A DNA stretch of 64,000 nt, from the NCBI RefSeq assembly GCF_009914755.1, contig NC_060930.1; one strand, given 5' to 3'. A model generated the notes under the pieces. That model was not told the DNA's origin and made no database searches. It was given only the letters and a program-made list of their open reading frames with translations. The stretch comes from the human T2T-CHM13v2.0 reference genome, Homo sapiens. Both the position numbers and the translations under genes were made by a program. This document shows positions 2,866-24,620 of this stretch, piece by piece (position 1 is the stretch's first letter; every line of letters starts with the position of its first letter).

Positions 2866-3081
2866 GTTCTCACTCATAAGTGGGAGTTGAACAATGAGAA
2901 CACATGGACACAGGCAGGGGAACATCACTCACTGGGGCCTGTGAGGGGGTCCCCTGCCAAGGGAAGGGAGAGCCTTAGGACAAACACCTAATGCTTGTGG
3001 GGCTTAAAACCTAGATAACGGGTTGATGGGTGCATCAAACCACCAAGGCACATGTATCCCATAACTTAAAGTAAGATTAAA
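2866..3081 (+). mobile_element. 5'-truncated L1PA 3'-UTR fragment (about L1PA7-10)
   Basis: gttctcactcataagtgggagttgaacaatgagaacacatggacacagg...ggggcttaaaacctagat; TSD aaaatcaaaatgttt (2851-2865) / aaaatcaaaatattt (3082-3096). Confidence 0.92.
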
Positions 3082-5855
3082 AAAATCAAAATATTTTAAA
3101 ACATACCAAATTATGAGTTTGAAAAAACCTATAATTGGAGAAAATATACTCTGATAAATGCACACAGCAAAAACACTCTGAAATGCTGGACAATGGGATG
3201 TCTGGATGGCTCTCTTGCTCCCTGGGACTTCAGCCAGTCCATATGGTCATCTAATAGGAAGCCTGAAGACTGTGGGTGATCTTGCAGACCATATGTGCTG
3301 CAATACCTAGGAACAACTGGGGCTTGGCTAATGACGTGGCAAAAACCTAAATTTAGATTTAACTTGTTTTTATTGAGCAGAACCCAAACCTCATTGGTAT
3401 TTTTGCACATTGCTTGCTTTGTTTATCAATAACTTTGAAATGAGGCTGCAAAAATATAGCCCTTTCCACTGCAGACATGCTTCAAATGACCTATTTTGGA
3501 ATGAAATGCCTTTCATTCTACAGAAATATTTTAAAAGCCAAAAGAAATAATGTTGTTGCAATTCTCCTTGTGCTGAGAACTAAGACTGGAGCCCACCAGT
3601 GGGTTGGCATTATAATTGCATCTGTAAATGATCCAGGGTACCTGTCTAAACCAAGACTATCCTCTAATCTTAGAGCTGACATTAAAGAAAAGAAAACAAA
3701 AACCATGAATGTGTAGTTGCTAGGATTCTAGAAGTCCCTGGGGAGTGCTTAAACTCAGGAATGGGCAAGAAGAATGTCAAAATAGATGGAAAATAAAGAT
3801 CTGATGAGATGATCATCAAAATCATGAGATATAGCATTCTCCCTAAATCTTCACTCTGTTGTCTATCCTTAGATGAGCATCCTGTTTTGTGAGAGTCAAT
3901 TTCATTTGAATACTTCACCTTCTTTATGTCATTTTAGCACCACTTACAAATACAGCAAAATTTATCACCAGGAAATAGAGTAAGGGAGACAGGGACAAGT
4001 AAGATAGAATTTAGGGGGTGTGATATTCTGAGCTGTGTTCTCTGTTTAAACTCACCAATTAATTTTTTGCTTAACCTCCAATTTTATATTGATTAATACA
4101 CATCAACGAAGTACCAATAATATTAAGAAGCTTACTTTCAACTCAAGATTAATGAAGATACATTATAAAATGGAGGAAAATTCCTTTACACAAAAGATAA
4201 GCAAGGAAATACTTTAAGACAACGGATGCACTTATTTTGAAGAAATTCTACACCTCCAACAAGAGAGATGGGTGTTTTCCATCAACAGAACTACTTTTCT
4301 AGCTCAGTATCCTTGTGAACAATTTGCACTCGATTAAGAGGCGTTAATTCTGATCCTCCTTCTTAGGTTTCACATGTCAAAGACTACATCTGATGTTTAG
4401 AAGCAAATTGACATTCCAATTAAGCTTATGTAAATGTCAACATCTATTTAATTTATTTTTACAGGTTAGAAATCAAACGGGTGTGGGGCTCTCTTTTAGT
4501 TGGTATTGTGTTGTTTAAATTTCTGTTTGTTCCAGATTATGATTTTAAAACTGGTAAATATGCCAAGGAGATGCCACATTTAATTCAGCACTGTGTTGTC
4601 AGATTGTTAGGAAGCAATTTTTATTTTCTTGAACAGAAGTGAGATCACTTGAGTAATATTAACTTTAATGTTCAAAATTGGCTTGGGTTACCCTCAACAT
4701 CACACTTGATGCAAGATTACAAAATGGGAGAACTAATGCTTAGGTGTTTAGAGGGTTCTGAACATGTCAAGCACTAAATTCTCTGTTAATTTATCAGCAG
4801 GCTATTTGATTATCACCAAGTAACAAATTTGTTTCTATATTTGTGGAAACTAATATAGAGAATGATATTGAGACCACAAATTGCTTCTCCATGTAGCAAT
4901 GGTGTCATAAAGATGAGAAATATATTTCTGTTACTGGTTTTAAACCTTGAAGGCTGAATTTCACACGGAACAGAAACTCCTATATAGTTTAGATGAGCCA
5001 CTATAGTTAAGAGGACAAAATAATACTTTCATTCAATATAGAGACAATAAAAAAGAACAATGAGCAAGTAGAACCATGAAATCATGGTCATTGAGCTACA
5101 TATAAAAATGAAATTAATATTCCAGATGATAGGAATTTCTATAACAAAAGTCCTGTGGGCATTCTCCCTGAAAATGTTGTGGAAGAATCCCAATAGGAAT
5201 AGATTTACTGATCCATTAGCAAATATTTATTTTATTTATCGACCAAGGACAATTCAAGAGACAAAAACCACATCAGTTATGTAAACAGAGAGAATTTTAT
5301 ATAAAGAATGATTAATTAGGTATCCAGTTATTAACTAGATACCTAGTTAATGTCACAAGTATTGTAATGAGCATCAAGGACAAAGTGGCACTCGAGAGAC
5401 CCTGACTTTCAGAAAGCTATGATGATGTTTAATAAAACAGAATGATAATCCCAGAGGCAAAATAGATGGGAACCAAATGAGGGTTTTGTTTAATCTGTAC
5501 AACCCAAAGAAATCAAGGTGGATATTTAAGGGGCTGAGGCAGTACCCAATAAACTACTACAGTTCCCTTGATCAGTTTATATACTTGGGCTAGTTTTCAG
5601 ACCCAGAAGCCACAACTGAAGGAGAGGCTGAGTTTCTAGGAGGAAGAACTCTGCAACACCACGACAATTGCATGTAGAGTAGTTATCCCTGCTTTCCTCT
5701 CCCAAAAGGACCTTCCACCATTTACTCAGGTTATCATACATTGATTAAAAGACAGTATTAACAGCTTTGAGAGCTATTCAACACTATATTTGTGTTGACA
5801 CTTATTCCTGGAAACCCACCAAAATTTTGTCATCTTGTTCCTTCTCTTAGAGTAG

Positions 5856-17243: not shown

Positions 17244-17245
<2 letters not shown>

Positions 17246-17276
<31 letters not shown>
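17246..17276. repeat. (AT)15 microsatellite
   Basis: Direct reading. Confidence 0.95.
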
Positions 17277-17278
<2 letters not shown>

Positions 17279-17533
17279 AATATATATAAAGTGTCTTGAA
17301 CAAATCACATATTTTAAATTAACAACTTGTCTTTGATAAATTTATTCTAAGTAAACAGTACTCATGAAGATATATGTGCAAAGATGTTCACTGCAATGTT
17401 CCTTATAATGACACATTTGGAAGCAAGTTAATACAAATAATAAGATGAATAACAGTAATTTAATTTAGTGTATTGATATGGATTGTTTAGACCCATTCAA
17501 ATTGTGTTTAGTAAATTTTATTTTATTTTTTTT

Positions 17534-17945
17534 GTGTGTGTGAGCAACAAGGCTGTTTATTTCACTTGGGTGCAAGTGGGCTGAGTCTGAGGAGAGAGTC
17601 AGCGAAGGGAGATGGGGGTGGGGCCGTTTTATAAGATTTGGGTAAGTAAAGGAAAAAGGGGGATTGTTGTCTGGCGGGCAGGAGTGGGGGGTCACAAGGT
17701 GCTCAGTGGGGGAGCTTTTTGAGCCAGGATGAGCCAGGAGAAGGAATTTCACAAGGTAATGTCATCAGTTAAGGCAAGGACCAGCCATTTTCACTTCTTT
17801 TGTGGTGGAATGTCATCAGTTAAGGCAGGAACAGGCCATTTAAATATCACTCTTTTGTGATTCTTCAGTTACTTCAGGCCATCTGGATGTATACGTGCAG
17901 GTCACAGGGGATATGATGGCTTAGCTTGAGCTCAGAGGCCTGACA
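17534..17945 (-). promoter_or_regulatory. 3' LTR7, U3+R only (TATA at 17627-17633, AATAAA at 17556-17561)
   Basis: Minus strand begins TGTCAGGCCTCTGAG; two ccttaactgatgacatt repeats; TATAAAACGGCCCCACCCC; stops at CTCACACA, then an A-tract; PPT AAGAAGACAGGAA immediately upstream (17946-17958). Confidence 0.93.
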
Positions 17946-18892
17946 TTCCTGTCTTCTTACATTAATAAGAAAAATAAAACATAATAGTGTTGAAGTGTTG
18001 GGGCAGCGAAAATTTTTGGGGGTGGTATGGAGAGACAATGGGCGATGTTTCTCAGGGCTGCTTCCAGCGGGATTAGGGGCGGTGTGGGAACCTAGAGTGG
18101 GAGAGATTAAGCTGAAGGAAGATTTTGTGGTAAGGGGTGATATTGTGGGGTTATTAGAAGAAACATTTGCTGTATAGAATTATTGGTGATGGCCTGGATA
18201 TGGTTTTGTATGAATTGAAAAAAGAACAGAATAAGACAAGGAGAAAAACAGGTATTAAAGGACTAAGAATTGGAAGGACCCAGGACATCTAACTAGAGAG
18301 TGCCTAAGGAGGTTCAGCATAGTCCTTCCAGCAAAGATTATTTATTTACTTTAAGAGGGAGTTAAGAGTGGCAGTTTGGGGATAGCACCAGGAGATATCA
18401 GCTGTGATGGCTTGGAGAAACAGTGTAAACCAGCAGTGTAAACAAGAGCACGGCATTTATGAGTAGTTGAGAACGGTGAATAGGAGTATGACAGACAGAA
18501 GATAGTAGGGATGACAAGTTTTGTTTTTTTGTTTTTTTGTTTTTTTTGGTGGGGGGGTGCAGTCCAAGTTGGTCTGGTGTCTGGAATGAGACTGGGGCCT
18601 AATAAAAAGGAGCGTCTATACAGGAGCTCAAATGGGCTGTACCCTGTAGCATTCCGAGGATAGGCCCGAATTCTGAGAAGGGCAAGTCGTAAAAGTATCG
18701 TCCAGTCCTTTTTAAGTTGGTGGCTGAGCTTGGTGTGGTGTGCTTTTAAAAGACCATTAGTTCACTGAATACTAAGAGCCTGAGAAACTGCTTGGGTGAT
18801 TTGACTAATAAAGGCCAGTCTGTTATAGGACTGTATAGAGGTGGGAAGGCCAATCTTCTGACAGAAGGGAAGAAATGACCGTGGTGGCCTTC

Positions 18893-19915
18893 TTAGACCC
18901 TGTGGGAAAGGCCTCTACCTATCCAGTGAAAGTGTTTACCCAGACCAAGAGGTATTTTAGTTTCCTGACTTGAGGCATGTGAGTAAAGCCAATTTGCCAG
19001 TCCTGGGAGGGGGCAAATCCCCGAGCTTGATGTGTAGGGAAGGGAGGGGGCCTGAATAATCGCTGAGGAGTAGTAGAATAGCAGATGGAACACTGAGAAG
19101 TTATTTCCTTGAGGATAGATTTCCACAATGGAAAGGAAATGAGAGGTTCTAAGAGGCGGGCTAGTGGCTTGTATTGTAGCATAGCCTGCCTTTGCTGGTG
19201 TGTGGCGATTAGGCCTGGTGGAACTGCCATCAATAAACCAAGTGTGATCAGGGTGAGAAACAGGAAAGAAAGAAATATGGGGAAATGGGGTGAATGTCAG
19301 GTGGATCAGAGAGATACAGTCCATAGGGGTCAGGTGTGGCATCAGGAATAATGTGGGAGGCAGGATTGAAGTCCAGGCTAGGAACAATGGTAATTGTGGG
19401 AGACTCAACAAAGAGTGAGTACAGCTGAAGGAGCTGGGGAGCAGAAAGTGTATGTGTCAGGTGTGAGGAAGAAAATAGATTTTGGAAGTTATAAAACTGT
19501 AGACAGTGAGTTGAGCATAGTTTGTGATTTTAAGGGCCTCTGAAAGTATCAGGGTGGCAGCGGCTGCTGCACGCAGACTTCAGGGCTAGGCAAAACAGTA
19601 AGGTCAAGTTGTTTGGATAAAAAGGCTACAGGGCACGGTCCTGGTTCTTGTGTAAGAATTCTGACTGCACAGCCCTGCACTTCAGCTGTGGGTAATGAAA
19701 AGGGTTGGGATGAGTCAGGGAGAGCTAGGGTGTGGGCAGTCTCTAAAGCTGTCTTCAAGGAAAGGAAAGAGGAGTGGGGAAAGGATTTAGAATCTATGGG
19801 ATCAGCTAGGTTTCCTTTTGTGGGTTTATATAATGGTTTTTTAGGATGGCAAAACCAGGTATCTAAAATCGAAAGTATCCAACCATGCCTAGGAAGGAAA
19901 GGAGTTGTTTTGTAG
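18893..19915 (-). pseudogene. HERV-H pol RNaseH/integrase remnants (frameshifted, deleted)
   Basis: Peptides HTWFIDGSS..KAGYA, LALPDSSQPFSL..VAFLSKQLD, ITSQCSICYST..HQARGFAPSQDWQIGFTHMP. Confidence 0.85.
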
Positions 19916-20024
19916 AAGGTGTTGGGGTTTGAGAGATCAGTCGGACACTATTTTGCAGGGAAAGCATGTGTGTTTTTATGACAATTATGCCAAGACAGGT
20001 AAAAGATGAGGAAGAAATTTGGGC

Positions 20025-20504
20025 TTAACTGAAGTAATGGGGGCCGTCTGTGAAGGCTTGCGGCAGTACAGCCCAGGTAATTTGCTGAGCCTGATGGGTG
20101 TCAGGGTCAGTCCAAGTGAAAGTGAAGAGAGGCTGGGATGAAGGGTGCAAAGGAATAGTAAAGAAAGCACGTTTGAAATCCAGAACAGAATATTGGGTTG
20201 TGGAGGGAGGTATTGAGGATAGGAGAGTATATGGGTTTGGCTCCATGGGGTGGATAGGCAAAACAATTTTGTTGATAAGGCACAGATCCTGAACTAACCT
20301 GTAAGCCTTGTCTGGTTTTAGGACAGGTAAAATGGGGGAATTGTAAGGAGAGTTTATAGGCTTTAAAAGGCCATGCTGTAACAGGTGAGTGATAACAGGC
20401 TTTAATCCTTTTAAAGCGTGCTGTGGGATGGGATATTGGCATTGAGTGGGGTAAGGATGATTAGGTTTTAATGGGATGGTAAGGAGTGCGTGATCAGTCG
20501 CCAA
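20025..20504 (-). pseudogene. HERV-H reverse transcriptase N-terminal fragment
   Basis: QYPIP..SPYNSPILPVLKPDKAYRLVQDL..NPYTLLS..FFTIPLHP..FTFTW..TWAVLPQAF; breaks before the YxDD motif. Confidence 0.9.
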
Positions 20505-20522
20505 GGAGGGAGTAGAGGTGTC

Positions 20523-20903
20523 CTATACTTGTGGGTTAAGGTGGGGGGATAGGAGAGGAGGATGCAAAAGAGGCTTTGAACTGGGGAAAGGGGTGGCAAT
20601 GAGGTGTGGCTGTAGTCCAGGAACAGTCAGGGAAGCAGAAAATTTAGTTAAAATGTCTTGGCCTAATAAGGGAACTGGGCAGGTGGGGACAAATAAAAAA
20701 GAGTGCATAAAAGAATGTTGTCTAAGTTGGCACCAGAGTTGGGGAGTTTTAAGAGGTTTAGAAGCCTGGCCGTCAATAGCCACAACAGTTGTGGAGGCAA
20801 GGGAAACAGGCCCTTGAAAAGAAGGTAATGTGGAGTGGGTAGCCTCTGTATTGATTAAGAAGGGGATGGACTTACCTTCCACTGTGAGAGTTACCCAGAG
20901 CAT
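20523..20903 (-). pseudogene. HERV-H protease with an inactivated catalytic motif
   Basis: VTLTVEGKSIPFLINTEATHSTL (DTGA changed to NTEA) ... PTCPVPLLGQDILTK. Confidence 0.88.
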
Positions 20904-20943
20904 CTATGATGGTCCTGTAGGCTTCCGAGGCAATCGGGCAGTG

Positions 20944-21900
20944 TCAGTCTTCAGCTGCTAAGCCGAGAAGATCTGGGAAGGAGTCAGTCAGAGAGCCTTG
21001 GGCCAGAGTTCCAGGGGCTCTGGAAGTGGCTGCCAGGTGAGTTGAACAGTCCGACTTCCAGTGGGGTCCCGCACAGATGGGACACGGCTTAGGAGGAATC
21101 CCGGTCTGTGGGCATTCCTTGGCCCAGTGGTCAGATTTCTGGCACTTGTAGCAAGTTCCTGGGGGAGGAGGTTCTGGAGGAACCCCTGGCAGCAGCGGTT
21201 CAGCTGTTTTGAAGTTGTTGTGTGCTAGAGATGTGGCTGGGGTTTCTCTCACAGTGGAGACAAGGAATTGCAACTCAGAAATACATTGCTAATTGGCTGC
21301 CTTTACTCTATTATTGTACACCTTGAAGGCGAGGTTAATTAAGTCCTGTTGTGGGGTTTGAGGGCTGGAATTTAATTTTTGGAGTTTTATTTAATGTCAG
21401 GAGCAGATTGGGTAATAAAATGTATATTGAGAATAAGACTGCCTTTTGACCTTTTAGGGTCTAGGACTGTCTCAGGGTTGCTGCCGAACGAGCCATGAAC
21501 TGGGCTGGGTTTTTCATATTTGATGAAAAAGAGCCTAAATGCTAACTGATTTTGGGAGAGGTCAGATAAAGAAAAAGGAGTATTAACCTTGACTATGCCT
21601 TTAGCTCCAGCCATCTTTTTAAGAGGAAATTGCTGGGCAGGTGCGGGAGGGCTAGTCGCAGAACAAAACTGTAAGCCGGACAGGCTGTGAGGAGGGGAGG
21701 TAATAAAAGGATTATAGGGTGGGGGAGCAGAGGCTGAGGAAGAGTTGGGACCTGGCTCGGCCTGGCGAGGGGCAGCCTGGGGAGGAGGGGAGAAGTCAGA
21801 TGGGTCTGTAGAAAAGGAAGATTAGAAAGACTCAGCGACGCTTGGGGTTGGGACTCAGAGGACAGGTGGGAGGGAAAGAAGGAGGATTTGGGATGAGTCA
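20944..21900 (-). pseudogene. HERV-H gag remnant with two zinc knuckles
   Basis: CYKCQKSDHWAKEC and CPICAGPHWKSDC; upstream GAKGIVKVNTPFSLSDLSQ. Confidence 0.88.
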
Positions 21901-22778
21901 CATTGGGAACAGAGACTAGGGAGGGAACAATGTGTAAAAGAATGCCTGGACATCAGGCACCTCAGACCGTTTGCCTATTTTACGATAAGAATTATCTAGA
22001 TCTTGTAGGATGGAAAAATCAAAAGTGCTGTTTTCTGGCTATTTGGAACCACTGTTTTGTTTGTATTGGGGTCAAGCGGCATTGTAGAAGAAAATAAGGC
22101 ATTTAGGTTTAGGTCAGGTGTGAGTTGAAGAGGTTTTAAGTTACTGAGAACACAGGCTAAGGGAGAAGAAGGAGGAATGGAGGGTGGAAGGCTGCCCATA
22201 GTGAAGGAGGCAAGCCCAGAGAAAAAAGAGAGTAGAGACATGGAGAGAAGGTGTGGGGAGTGCTTGCCCCCCCAGGAAAGTGGAAAAGGGATAGGGACAC
22301 GGAGAGAAGGGGTCTGGGGGTTCTTGCCACCCAGAAAAGTGGTACTTGCCACTAAGGGTGAAGGACCAAGGCAGGCGTCCCCGCATGGTCAGACATCTCT
22401 GAATTGTGGGTGAATAATCAGGCAGGTGTCCCCGTGTGATTAAACACCAAGGGAAGACTGTCTTCCCCAGTCTGTGACCCACGCTGGAGTTTTGGGTCCA
22501 TGGATAAAATGCGTCTCCTATCTCTACAAGAAAAGGAAAGGAACTGAAATTAAGAGAAGGGAGAGATTGACGTGTGGTGCCAAGATTGAAAGGAGAAAGA
22601 AGTTGAGGGATAGTGACGGAGGTTGAAGAAGAGAGTAAAAAGAGGCCGCTTACCTGATTTAAAATTGGTGTGATGTTCCTTGGGCTGGTTGGTCTGAGAA
22701 TCTGAGGTCATAGGTGGATCTTTCTCACGGAGCAAAGAGCAGGAGGACAGGGGATTGATCTCCCATGGGAGGCCCCCA

Positions 22779-22796
22779 ATCCGAGTCACAGCACCA
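22779..22796 (-). other. Primer-binding site, tRNA-His
   Basis: Minus strand TGGTGCTGTGACTCGGAT, one mismatch to TGGTGCCGTGACTCGGAT. Confidence 0.92.
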
Positions 22797-22799
22797 AAA

Positions 22800-22905
22800 T
22801 TTCACTCGCGTCCTTGTGAAGAGACCACCAAACAGGCTTTGTGTGAGCAACAAGGCTGTTTATTTCACCTGGGTGCAGGCGGGCTGAGTCCGAAAAGAGA
22901 GTCAG
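22800..22905 (-). promoter_or_regulatory. 5' LTR7 remnant: R-U5 only, no U3
   Basis: CTGACTCTCTTTTCGGACTCAGCCCGCC...GGTCTCTTCAC..GTGAAA; LTR homology stops at 22905 and host L1 sequence follows. Confidence 0.92.
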
Positions 22906-23434
22906 TCAGGAAAATTTTTAAATTACATTTAAATACTCATATCGTAATGGTTAGTATAAAAAAGCAGCACATAAAATGAAATGTAGAATATATTACCTAA
23001 TATATAGAGGGAACACCAGAACTGTATATATTTATAAATATAGACAATTTAATTACACACACTCATATATTTGACAGGATATATGACAAAATATTGTGTT
23101 TAAAACAAGTGATTTCTATAATCTTCCCTTTACCTTTCCATAATTCTTTGTTGAGTTCTCCACAATAAGTGTGTATTAGTTTATAGTTAGAAAAGAAGCA
23201 ATTTTGAAAAGAGAAAATGGGCTGTCAATAAACTAAAGTAGATTTGTGAAATTGTATTTGTCAATATAGCAATCATTATAGCAATTGATTTAAAACTGCT
23301 GCTTTTTAGAGGACTATGTTAGCTTTATTTAGTTTTGTTCTCTGTTTATAAAACATTTTATAGTTTTAGAGTTTCCAAGATGTAGAATTTTCTACGGAGT
23401 AGTATGAAGCTGACACTTCAGATATCAAATACTT

Positions 23435-24620
<1,186 letters not shown>

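What the first reader, a model, noticed from the sequence alone, without database searches (positions are those of the whole stretch)
17511..22921. HERV-H with mRNA architecture: probable L1-retroposed ERV processed pseudogene
Seen in the sequence (minus strand): (1) The 5' LTR has only R-U5 (22800-22905). Its first base corresponds to position 17602 of the 3' LTR, 31 nt downstream of the TATAAAA at 17633, which is the expected cap-site distance. (2) The 3' LTR has U3-R but no U5: it stops at CA dinucleotides 22 nt after AATAAA and runs into an A-rich tail (17516-17533, A8 TAAAA TAAAA). (3) The far flank reads TTTTT/AA (22915-22921), the L1 endonuclease consensus. (4) There is an imperfect direct repeat gtaaatttt (17511-17519) / gaaaatttt (22910-22918), extendable with mismatches to ttagtaaatttt/tcaggaaaattttt, instead of the short integrase TSD next to complete LTR termini. 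(5) The host L1M is continuous across the insertion. Established: retroviral reverse transcription regenerates two complete LTRs, whereas L1 target-primed reverse transcription copies R-to-poly(A) RNA. Such ERV processed pseudogenes are well known for HERV-W and much less so for HERV-H. Inference: a full-length, apparently unspliced 5.4-kb HERV-H transcript was mobilised in trans by L1 in the germline or early embryo. Standard repeat annotation would simply list it as a provirus with two partial LTR7s.
Basis: partly seen in the sequence, partly recalled or inferred. Interest (0 to 1): 0.82.

Follow-up and report, generated by a model that had tools for sequence, protein, structure and literature searches.

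The report
L1-retroposed copy of HERV-H RNA
This 5.4-kb element is a DNA copy of a full-length HERV-H retroviral transcript that the L1 retrotransposon machinery pasted into the genome, and dozens of similar HERV-H copies exist in the same genome.

Summary
On the minus strand the element (17516-22907) starts at the first base of the LTR7 R region, 30-31 nt after the TATA box position. It runs R-U5, tRNA-His primer-binding site, then degraded gag-pro-pol, then U3-R. It stops 22 nt after AATAAA in an 18-nt A-rich tail. The 5' U3 and the 3' U5 are both absent. A TTT|AAAAA L1-endonuclease motif lies 12 nt upstream of the 5' junction (P about 0.02 by chance).

Two sub-claims fail. The direct repeat is no better than chance (P 0.14-0.33). 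The claim that the host L1M is continuous across the insertion found no support.

Of 26 independent LTR7 R-poly(A) ends that I examined, 19 have clear 10-17 bp target-site duplications. Eleven are HERV-H copies that begin at the same R base, usually with one extra untemplated G. One is spliced at the donor that the window copy leaves unused, and two have 5' inversions. The patterns used point to at least about 46 events, of which 23 were checked at both ends.

Verdict: an L1-made HERV-H processed pseudogene, confidence 0.9. It is a new member of a kind known from HERV-W, and of moderate interest.

The parts
22920..22922 (-). TTT directly before the target-site copy. Together with the next part it reads TTT|AAAAA (plus strand TTTTT/AAA), the L1 endonuclease nick motif.
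   Evidence: TTAAAA at this distance at 1.8% of random window positions
22908..22919 (-). 5' copy of the putative target-site duplication, AAAAATTTTCCT
   Evidence: Not above chance on its own.
22907..22907 (-). G with no counterpart in the LTR7 template, read as the extra (cap-derived) G seen in 10 of 12 other R-start copies
   Evidence: That it derives from the cap is recalled knowledge.
22839..22906 (-). 5' R region. The first base, 22906, is A where the 3' LTR and the other copies have G. It holds an AATAAA.
   Evidence: 60 of 67 positions identical to the 3' R
22800..22838 (-). U5, ending in GTGAAA
22779..22796 (-). tRNA-His primer-binding site TGGTGCTGTGACTCGGAT, 17 of 18 matching the published HERV-H PBS primer
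   Evidence: PMC3253121 methods passage.
22650..22656 (-). Major splice donor CAG|GTAAG, left unused in this copy
   Evidence: Homology of L034 and L069 to the window element breaks at element position 266, within 2 nt of the exon end at 268.
17946..22778 (-). Internal region: leader, then degraded gag-pro-pol in retroviral order. Zinc knuckle 21106-21159, protease 20628-20894, partial RT 20028-20321, RNase H-like 19603-19773. No integrase or env match. Many stops.
   Evidence: read with X at stops. Colinear with other HERV-H copies.
17604..17945 (-). U3 of the 3' LTR (342 nt, starts TGTCAGGCC), with TATAAAA at 17627-17633
17534..17603 (-). 3' R, from G17603 to the poly(A) site. AATAAA at 17556-17561. 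Ends GCTCACACACAC with a short (CA)n.
17516..17533 (-). A-rich tail A8TA4TA4 (16 of 18 bases are A) where U5 should be
17510..17519 (-). 3' copy of the putative target-site duplication, AAAATTTACT. Its first four A overlap the tail.

Best explanation
An unspliced, polyadenylated transcript of an env-less, pol-deleted HERV-H provirus was made from the cap site in the 5' LTR to the poly(A) site in the 3' LTR. L1 ORF2p then copied it in trans by target-primed reverse transcription. The bottom strand was nicked at TTTTT/AAA, the T-run primed on the poly(A) tail, and the cDNA ran to the capped 5' end, adding one G. The copy was sealed with a target-site duplication of about 11-12 bp that has since decayed.

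The result (17516-22907, minus strand) has no promoter at its 5' end and keeps a U3-R at its 3' end. Shown here: the ends, the tail, the nick motif, colinearity, and the existence of sister copies with clean L1 hallmarks. Inferred: L1 as the enzyme source, occurrence in the germ line, and an age of tens of millions of years.
For: Ends of the window copy:
- The 5' end lies at the R start and the 3' end at the poly(A) site, in all 9 LTR7 comparisons.
- There is an A-rich tail.
- TTT|AAAAA lies 12 nt upstream of the 5' junction, P=0.018.

Identity:
- The His PBS and the R-region sequence match published HERV-H primers.
- gag NC, protease, RT and RNase H remnants lie in retroviral order.

Sister copies:
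- A strict R-poly(A) pattern gave 102 matches against 0 for the reversed control, which collapse to 28 sites and 26 events.
- 19 of the 26 events have clear TSDs of 10-17 nt.
- 11 are HERV-H copies starting at (G)GCTGACTC, the same base as the window copy.
- 10 of 12 R-start junctions carry one G beyond the template.
- L034 is spliced at the donor the window copy retains.
- L022 and L032 have 5' inversions.
- In a second set found by the 5' pattern, 4 of 5 sampled copies have poly(A) plus a TSD.

Definition: the features match those given for HERV-W processed pseudogenes in PMC5016936.
Against: The window copy's own TSD is not distinguishable from chance. It has 2 differences in 11 positions, while the sister copies show 0-1 in 10-17.

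Its tail is short and impure. No empty orthologous site could be examined, so a target deletion or an endonuclease-independent insertion cannot be excluded for this copy.

Base 22906 is A rather than the expected G. No donor provirus was found: the best relatives are only 90-91% identical.

7 of the 26 sister events were not resolved at the 5' side. Three had weak TSDs, three had none found, and one was not fetched far enough.
Confidence: 0.9

Rival explanations
1. An ordinary integrase-made provirus that later lost its 5' U3 and its 3' U5 by two separate deletions. The A-rich run would be flank or a small microsatellite.
For: The TSD is not significant and the tail is only 18 nt with two T. 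The element is old, at most 91% identical to any relative seen, so there has been time for deletions.
Against: Both breakpoints would have to fall on the very bases where at least 11 independent copies with clean long TSDs and pure poly(A) begin and end. There is no short integrase-type repeat and no LTR terminus at either end. A TT|AAAA motif sits at TSD distance, P=0.018.
Confidence: 0.03
2. A reverse-transcribed copy of HERV-H RNA that entered by a route other than L1 endonuclease-dependent priming. Examples are insertion at a pre-existing break, or cDNA made by a retroviral reverse transcriptase that failed both strand transfers and was joined by end-joining.
For: The target duplication is weak and possibly absent. 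The two bases GA between the repeat and CTGACTC could be filler.
Against: The L1 nick motif sits at the expected place. The extra G is shared with 10 of 12 sister copies that have canonical L1-type TSDs. A retroviral cDNA would be primed at the PBS, not at the poly(A) tail, and would not retain a tail.
Confidence: 0.06

Closest known systems
HERV-W processed pseudogenes. Pavlicek et al. 2002 was not held and is cited as summarised in Grandi et al. 2016, PMC5016936 (passages read).
   Same: 5' LTR reduced to R-U5, 3' LTR reduced to U3-R, poly(A) tail, TT/AAAA insertion motif, variable TSD, colinearity with the retroviral RNA, and promoterless copies.
   Different: A different retroviral group: LTR7 and tRNA-His PBS rather than LTR17. 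The fraction is far smaller. 135 of 213 HERV-W loci are pseudogenes, against a few dozen HERV-H copies out of about one thousand elements (the figure of about 1000 is from a PMC3253121 passage). The HERV-H set also includes spliced, chimeric and R-only retrocopies.
Cellular processed pseudogenes (mRNA retrocopies) made by L1
   Same: Trans use of L1 ORF2p on a polyadenylated Pol II transcript. Poly(A) tail, TSD, 5' truncation and 5' inversion, all seen among the sister copies.
   Different: The template is a retroviral genomic-length RNA, so repeat annotation will show the copy as a provirus with two partial LTRs.
Spliced HERV-H copies in genomic DNA. Goodchild, Freeman and Mager 1995, Virology: recalled only, not seen here.
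   Same: RNA-mediated amplification of HERV-H, including spliced forms.
   Different: As I recall it, that work argued for retrotransposition in general. I could not check whether those copies have complete LTRs or R-to-poly(A) ends.
Canonical HERV-H provirus
   Same: The same internal sequence and LTR7 sequence.
   Different: A provirus has two complete U3-R-U5 LTRs and a short integrase-made duplication. Neither LTR terminus is present here.

Membership tests
L1-made ERV processed pseudogene (criteria as listed for HERV-W in PMC5016936) | 5' LTR truncated to R-U5, starting at the transcription start | tested here: met
   Homology to 9 of 9 LTR7 copies starts at 22905/22906. This is the same base as the 5' end of 11 TSD-flanked sister copies.
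L1-made ERV processed pseudogene (criteria as listed for HERV-W in PMC5016936) | 3' LTR truncated to U3-R, ending at the poly(A) site | tested here: met
   Homology ends at 17537, 22 nt after AATAAA, and U5 is absent.
L1-made ERV processed pseudogene (criteria as listed for HERV-W in PMC5016936) | Poly(A) tail | tested here: met
   A8TA4TA4, 16 of 18 bases A. It is short and impure compared with the A14-A35 tails of sister copies.
L1-made ERV processed pseudogene (criteria as listed for HERV-W in PMC5016936) | TT/AAAA insertion motif | tested here: met
   TTT|AAAAA lies 12 nt before the junction. It is found at 1.8% of random positions.
L1-made ERV processed pseudogene (criteria as listed for HERV-W in PMC5016936) | Target-site duplication of variable length (5-15 bp) | tested here: inconclusive
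   AAAATTTTCCT against AAAATTTACT, edit distance 2. P=0.14 against random flanks and 0.33 against AT-rich flanks.
L1-made ERV processed pseudogene (criteria as listed for HERV-W in PMC5016936) | Empty orthologous site in an outgroup | not testable with these tools
   No primate genome other than the window's own is held.
HERV-H (LTR7 / tRNA-His group) | Primer-binding site complementary to tRNA-His directly after the 5' LTR | tested here: met
   17 of 18 bases match the published HERV-H PBS primer (PMC3253121).
HERV-H (LTR7 / tRNA-His group) | LTR and internal sequence homologous to the family | tested here: met
The LTR is 92-94% identical to other LTR7 copies. The internal 2.8 kb is 84-90% identical to 40 scored copies out of 1239 candidates.
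Canonical integrase-made provirus | Two complete LTRs with their termini and a short flanking duplication | tested here: not met
   The 5' U3 and 3' U5 are absent, and no LTR terminus abuts either flank.

The most novel reading that the evidence does not exclude
HERV-H RNA was a recurrent substrate of L1. The T2T genome holds at least about 46 independent L1-type retrocopies of LTR7-initiated or LTR7-terminated RNAs besides this one. About 29 of them begin exactly at the LTR7 cap site. They include genomic-length unspliced copies, spliced copies, chimeric copies and even an R-only copy.

This contradicts the printed statement that HERV-W is the sole HERV group mobilised by L1. It also means that a few per cent of annotated 'HERV-H proviruses' are promoterless retrocopies. 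For those copies LTR-LTR dating, solo-LTR recombination and promoter assignments do not apply. Their 5' ends record the ancestral HERV-H cap site at single-base resolution.
Probability: 0.45. Interest if true: 0.55.

Novelty: new member of a known kind. Interest (0 to 1): 0.42.

Why it matters
HERV-H is the retroviral family most studied for transcription in human pluripotent cells and early embryos. Locus-level work assumes that a copy with LTR7 at both ends is a provirus with its own promoter. Copies like this one have no U3 at the 5' end, so any transcription must come from elsewhere. Their two 'LTRs' were never identical sister copies, so LTR-divergence dating is invalid for them.

In the papers I could read, L1-made pseudogenes are treated as a HERV-W peculiarity. 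A 2017 review abstract calls W the sole such group (PMC5537654). A 2018 study of HERV-H, HERV-K and HERV-W dimorphism removed pseudogenes for W, and its pseudogene and L1-machinery passages name no other family (PMC6298018).

The sister copies also give a base-exact record of the HERV-H transcription start, poly(A) site and main splice donor in the ancestral germ line. The mechanism itself is textbook, so for a specialist the surprise is modest.

Tried and rejected
- Host L1M continuity. I cannot say the flanks are not L1M, because no repeat library was available.
- A longer or better TSD for the window copy: none within 155 nt of upstream and 160 nt of downstream flank.
- A recent donor provirus: none, best identity 90%.
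- The 5' pattern GGCTGACTC as a specific marker of retrocopies: rejected as specific. 27 of 60 matches are ordinary LTR7 with a C-to-G variant, and 8 of the 26 stubs also had a U3.
- Literature. Six exact phrases for HERV-H processed pseudogenes or retrocopies found 0 papers. Searches combining HERV-H or HERVH with 'processed pseudogene', LINE-mediated, L1 machinery, or LTR7 with retrocopy terms gave no description of HERV-H processed pseudogenes in the listings and passages I read. Pavlicek et al. 2002 is not held, so I could not check whether it mentions HERV-H cases. I half-recall that it may. Supplements were not consulted.
Full report
**What is in the window**

Read on the minus strand, the sequence upstream of 22907 is AT-rich unique DNA ending ...GTAATTTAAAAATTTTCCT. 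Then come G, A and CTGACTCTCTTTTCGGACTCAGCC....

I compared this with nine other LTR7 copies taken from the same genome. In blastn and in a MAFFT alignment, homology begins at 22905 or 22906 in all nine. The stretch 22800-22906 is R plus U5 and ends in GTGAAA. TGGTGCTGTGACTCGGAT follows. [quoted passage not shown] The same paper's R-region primer is the reverse complement of bases found at the start of this R (PMC3253121, methods passage). That passage is my support for the names HERV-H and LTR7. No repeat library was available.

At the other end, a complete U3 of 342 nt starts at 17945 with TGTCAGGCC. TATAAAA lies at 17627-17633, and the base homologous to the 5' end is G17603/C17602, 30-31 nt downstream of the TATA box. 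R runs through AATAAA (17556-17561) to GCTCACACACA. Homology to the eight complete LTR7 copies stops at 17537, and the roughly 40-nt U5 is replaced by A8TA4TA4 at 17516-17533.

The two R copies are identical at 60 of 67 positions.

Between the LTR parts, Pfam finds a gag zinc knuckle, protease, a partial reverse transcriptase and an RNase H-like domain. They are in that order, in shifting frames with many stops, and there is no integrase or envelope match (read with X at stops). The element is colinear with other HERV-H copies across the leader and across the splice donor CAG|GTAAG at 22653/22654. It therefore copies an unspliced RNA of the common env-less, pol-deleted form.

**What does not hold**

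My best reading is AAAATTTTCCT (5') against AAAATTTACT (3'), an edit distance of 2. I scored random 5' flanks from the window in the same way against the real 3' flank. 14% did as well or better, and 33% of AT-rich flanks did. No longer repeat lies within 155 nt upstream and 160 nt downstream of the element.

The claim that a host L1M runs continuously across the insertion found no support.
- Both flanks are essentially unique in the genome search.
- Six-frame translations of 1.5 kb on each side hit no L1 domain.
- In 340 kb of other human DNA, only the 3' flank had a weak 62% relative.
- The 5' flank does not continue that match.

This is absence of support, not disproof.

**What does hold for this copy alone**

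In sense orientation the 5' flank reads TTT|AAAAATTTTCCT. This is the L1 endonuclease motif TT/AAAA, placed 12 nt before the junction, where a target-site duplication should begin. Only 1.8% of sampled positions in this window have TTAAAA at such a distance.

**The decisive evidence comes from sister copies**

First set (3' pattern).
- A strict pattern for 'end of LTR7 R followed within 8 nt by nine A' matched 102 times in the genome and 0 times when read backwards. The 100 listed matches collapse to 28 sites. The window copy, with eight A, is not among them.
- I fetched all 28 sites. Three share their flanks (L025-L027, inside alpha satellite), which leaves 26 events.
- 19 of the 26 show clear target-site duplications of 10-17 nt directly after the poly(A) tail and directly before the 5' end. 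Three more are weak or short (L033, L038, L040). Three showed none by my searches (L019, L020, L028). One 5' end lay outside the fetched stretch (L041).
- Eleven events are HERV-H copies of 0.8-5.5 kb that begin at the same R base as the window copy: L016, L018, L021, L023, L024, L029, L031, L034, L035, L039 and L042.
- L036 is R plus poly(A) only.

The extra G. Genomic LTR7 reads ...CCCTTCG|CTGACTC. The retrocopies begin with that G. In 10 of the 12 R-start junctions a second G precedes it that neither the LTR nor the 3' copy of the target duplication explains. I read this as the extra G that L1 reverse transcription adds at capped 5' ends, which is recalled knowledge. The window's G22907-A22906 fits this as 'extra G plus first base, G mutated to A'.

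Other L1 signatures among the sister copies.
- L034 lacks the sequence between the donor at element position 266-268 and two downstream blocks, so it copies a spliced RNA.
- L022 and L032 carry an inverted 5' segment, as twin priming produces.
- Nick sites read TT|AAAA or close variants in most copies. I judged this by eye from the output.

Second set (5' pattern).
- A 5' pattern, GG followed by the R start, gave 60 matches.
- 27 of these have LTR7 U3 context and are ordinary LTRs with a C-to-G change.
- 7 are the 5' ends of copies in the first set.
- Of the remaining 26, read as 161-nt stubs, 8 have a U3, 1 is an inverted R-R junction, and 17 (16 events) have unrelated flank right up to the GG.
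- I fetched five of these 16, chosen because their flanks showed an A-rich motif, so they are not a random sample. Four have poly(A) plus a TSD: one full-length copy (L070), one deleted (L071), one spliced or deleted (L072) and one chimeric copy spliced from the HERV-H donor into other sequence (L069). One was unresolved (L073).

Third set (looser 3' pattern). This pattern found 29 sites, 24 already known and 5 new and uninspected. One of the new sites lies 4.4 kb downstream of a second-set 5' end.

Counted together this is at least about 46 events besides the window copy. Of these, 23 were verified with tail and TSD.

**Mechanism**

The best explanation is L1-mediated retroposition of a full-length HERV-H transcript. 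The bottom strand was nicked at TTTTT/AAA, priming took place on the poly(A) tail, the cDNA ran to the cap, and the second strand was cleaved about 12 nt away.

The ends, tail, motif and colinearity are shown. The enzyme, the cell type and the date are inferred.

The nearest relatives are only 90-91% identical. The copy is therefore old, and a decayed 11-12 nt duplication in a T/A run is not unexpected. Even so, this copy's duplication stays unproven.

The rival of two chance deletions would require both breakpoints to fall on the very bases used by at least eleven independent retrocopies. I give it 0.03. An L1-independent or endonuclease-independent insertion of the same cDNA gets 0.06.

**Comparison with what is known**

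The structure meets the criteria listed for HERV-W processed pseudogenes: R-U5 at 5', U3-R at 3', a poly(A) tail, the TT/AAAA motif and a 5-15 bp TSD (PMC5016936, passages). The exception is the TSD, which is inconclusive.

It is not a member of the HERV-W group. It is the same kind of object from HERV-H.

In the papers I could search and read, I found no description of HERV-H processed pseudogenes.
- A 2017 review abstract calls HERV-W the sole group mobilised by L1 (PMC5537654).
- A classification of 3173 HERV loci says processed pseudogenes were not told apart from proviruses (PMC4724089, passages).
- A study of HERV-H, HERV-K and HERV-W dimorphism says it excluded such copies for W. The passages I read name no other family (PMC6298018, passage).
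- The founding paper (Pavlicek et al. 2002) and other subscription-era papers were not available to me, so prior mention cannot be excluded.

**Verdict**

The locus is a new member of a known kind. The mechanism is ordinary. The under-recognised class behind it is the more interesting result.

Noticed in passing
L036 (chr14:33487064-33492964), junction near index 5648 in sense orientation: A retrocopy consisting only of the LTR7 R region (about 70 nt) plus poly(A), with TSD AAAACTCTGTTCT and the extra G. It implies an RNA that started at the cap site and was polyadenylated in the same LTR.
   Followed up: partly
L025, L026, L027 (chr9:42.41M, 47.59M, 77.28M): One 3-kb retrocopy that starts with non-HERV sequence and ends at the poly(A) site of an LTR7 variant. 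It is inserted in alpha satellite (TSD A[A/G]TAGACAAAAG) and is present three times with the same flanks, so it was later segmentally duplicated.
   Followed up: partly
L022 (chr5:144.46M) and L032 (chr12:9.72M): 5'-truncated HERV-H retrocopies with an inverted 5' segment next to or upstream of the sense part, as expected from twin priming.
   Followed up: partly
L069 (chr3:158813570-158820100): A 1.5-kb retrocopy whose first 250 nt are LTR7 R-U5 and leader up to the HERV-H splice donor. The rest is unrelated sequence ending in poly(A) (TSD AAAAAAAAGTGGTACA). It is a fossil of an LTR7-driven chimeric transcript.
   Followed up: partly
L017, L019, L020, L025-L027, L043, L051, L054, L064: A second LTR type shares the R region but has a different U3 (…CCTATAAGAACTAATGATAATCC… before the cap site). 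I took it to be another LTR7 subfamily but did not name it.
   Followed up: no
L048 (chr3:90149443-90149603): Two R regions joined head to head: an inverted R runs straight into GGCTGACTC. The site lies near the chr3 centromere.
   Followed up: no
L073 (chr16:76430810-76437340): A copy that begins at the R start with non-LTR flank, but whose downstream LTR is complete and is followed by a second PBS and internal region. It may be a retrocopy of a read-through RNA from a tandem provirus. The end was not reached.
   Followed up: no
window 17534-17541; L070 3' end; chr12:78819095-78819134 (L033): A (CA)n run has grown at the LTR7 poly(A) site in several retrocopies: 4 units in the window and about 14 in L070. 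This hides them from strict patterns.
   Followed up: no
window about 17245-17290 and about 23694-24045: A (TA)n microsatellite lies in the 3' flank. An Alu-like stretch lies in the 5' flank, seen in the read-through translation and masked in the hub's list.
   Followed up: no
window 19670-19881 (element positions 3041-3252): About 210 nt present in the window copy and in L029, L039 and L040 but absent from most other HERV-H copies compared. It is an indel that splits the family, not a foreign insertion.
   Followed up: partly
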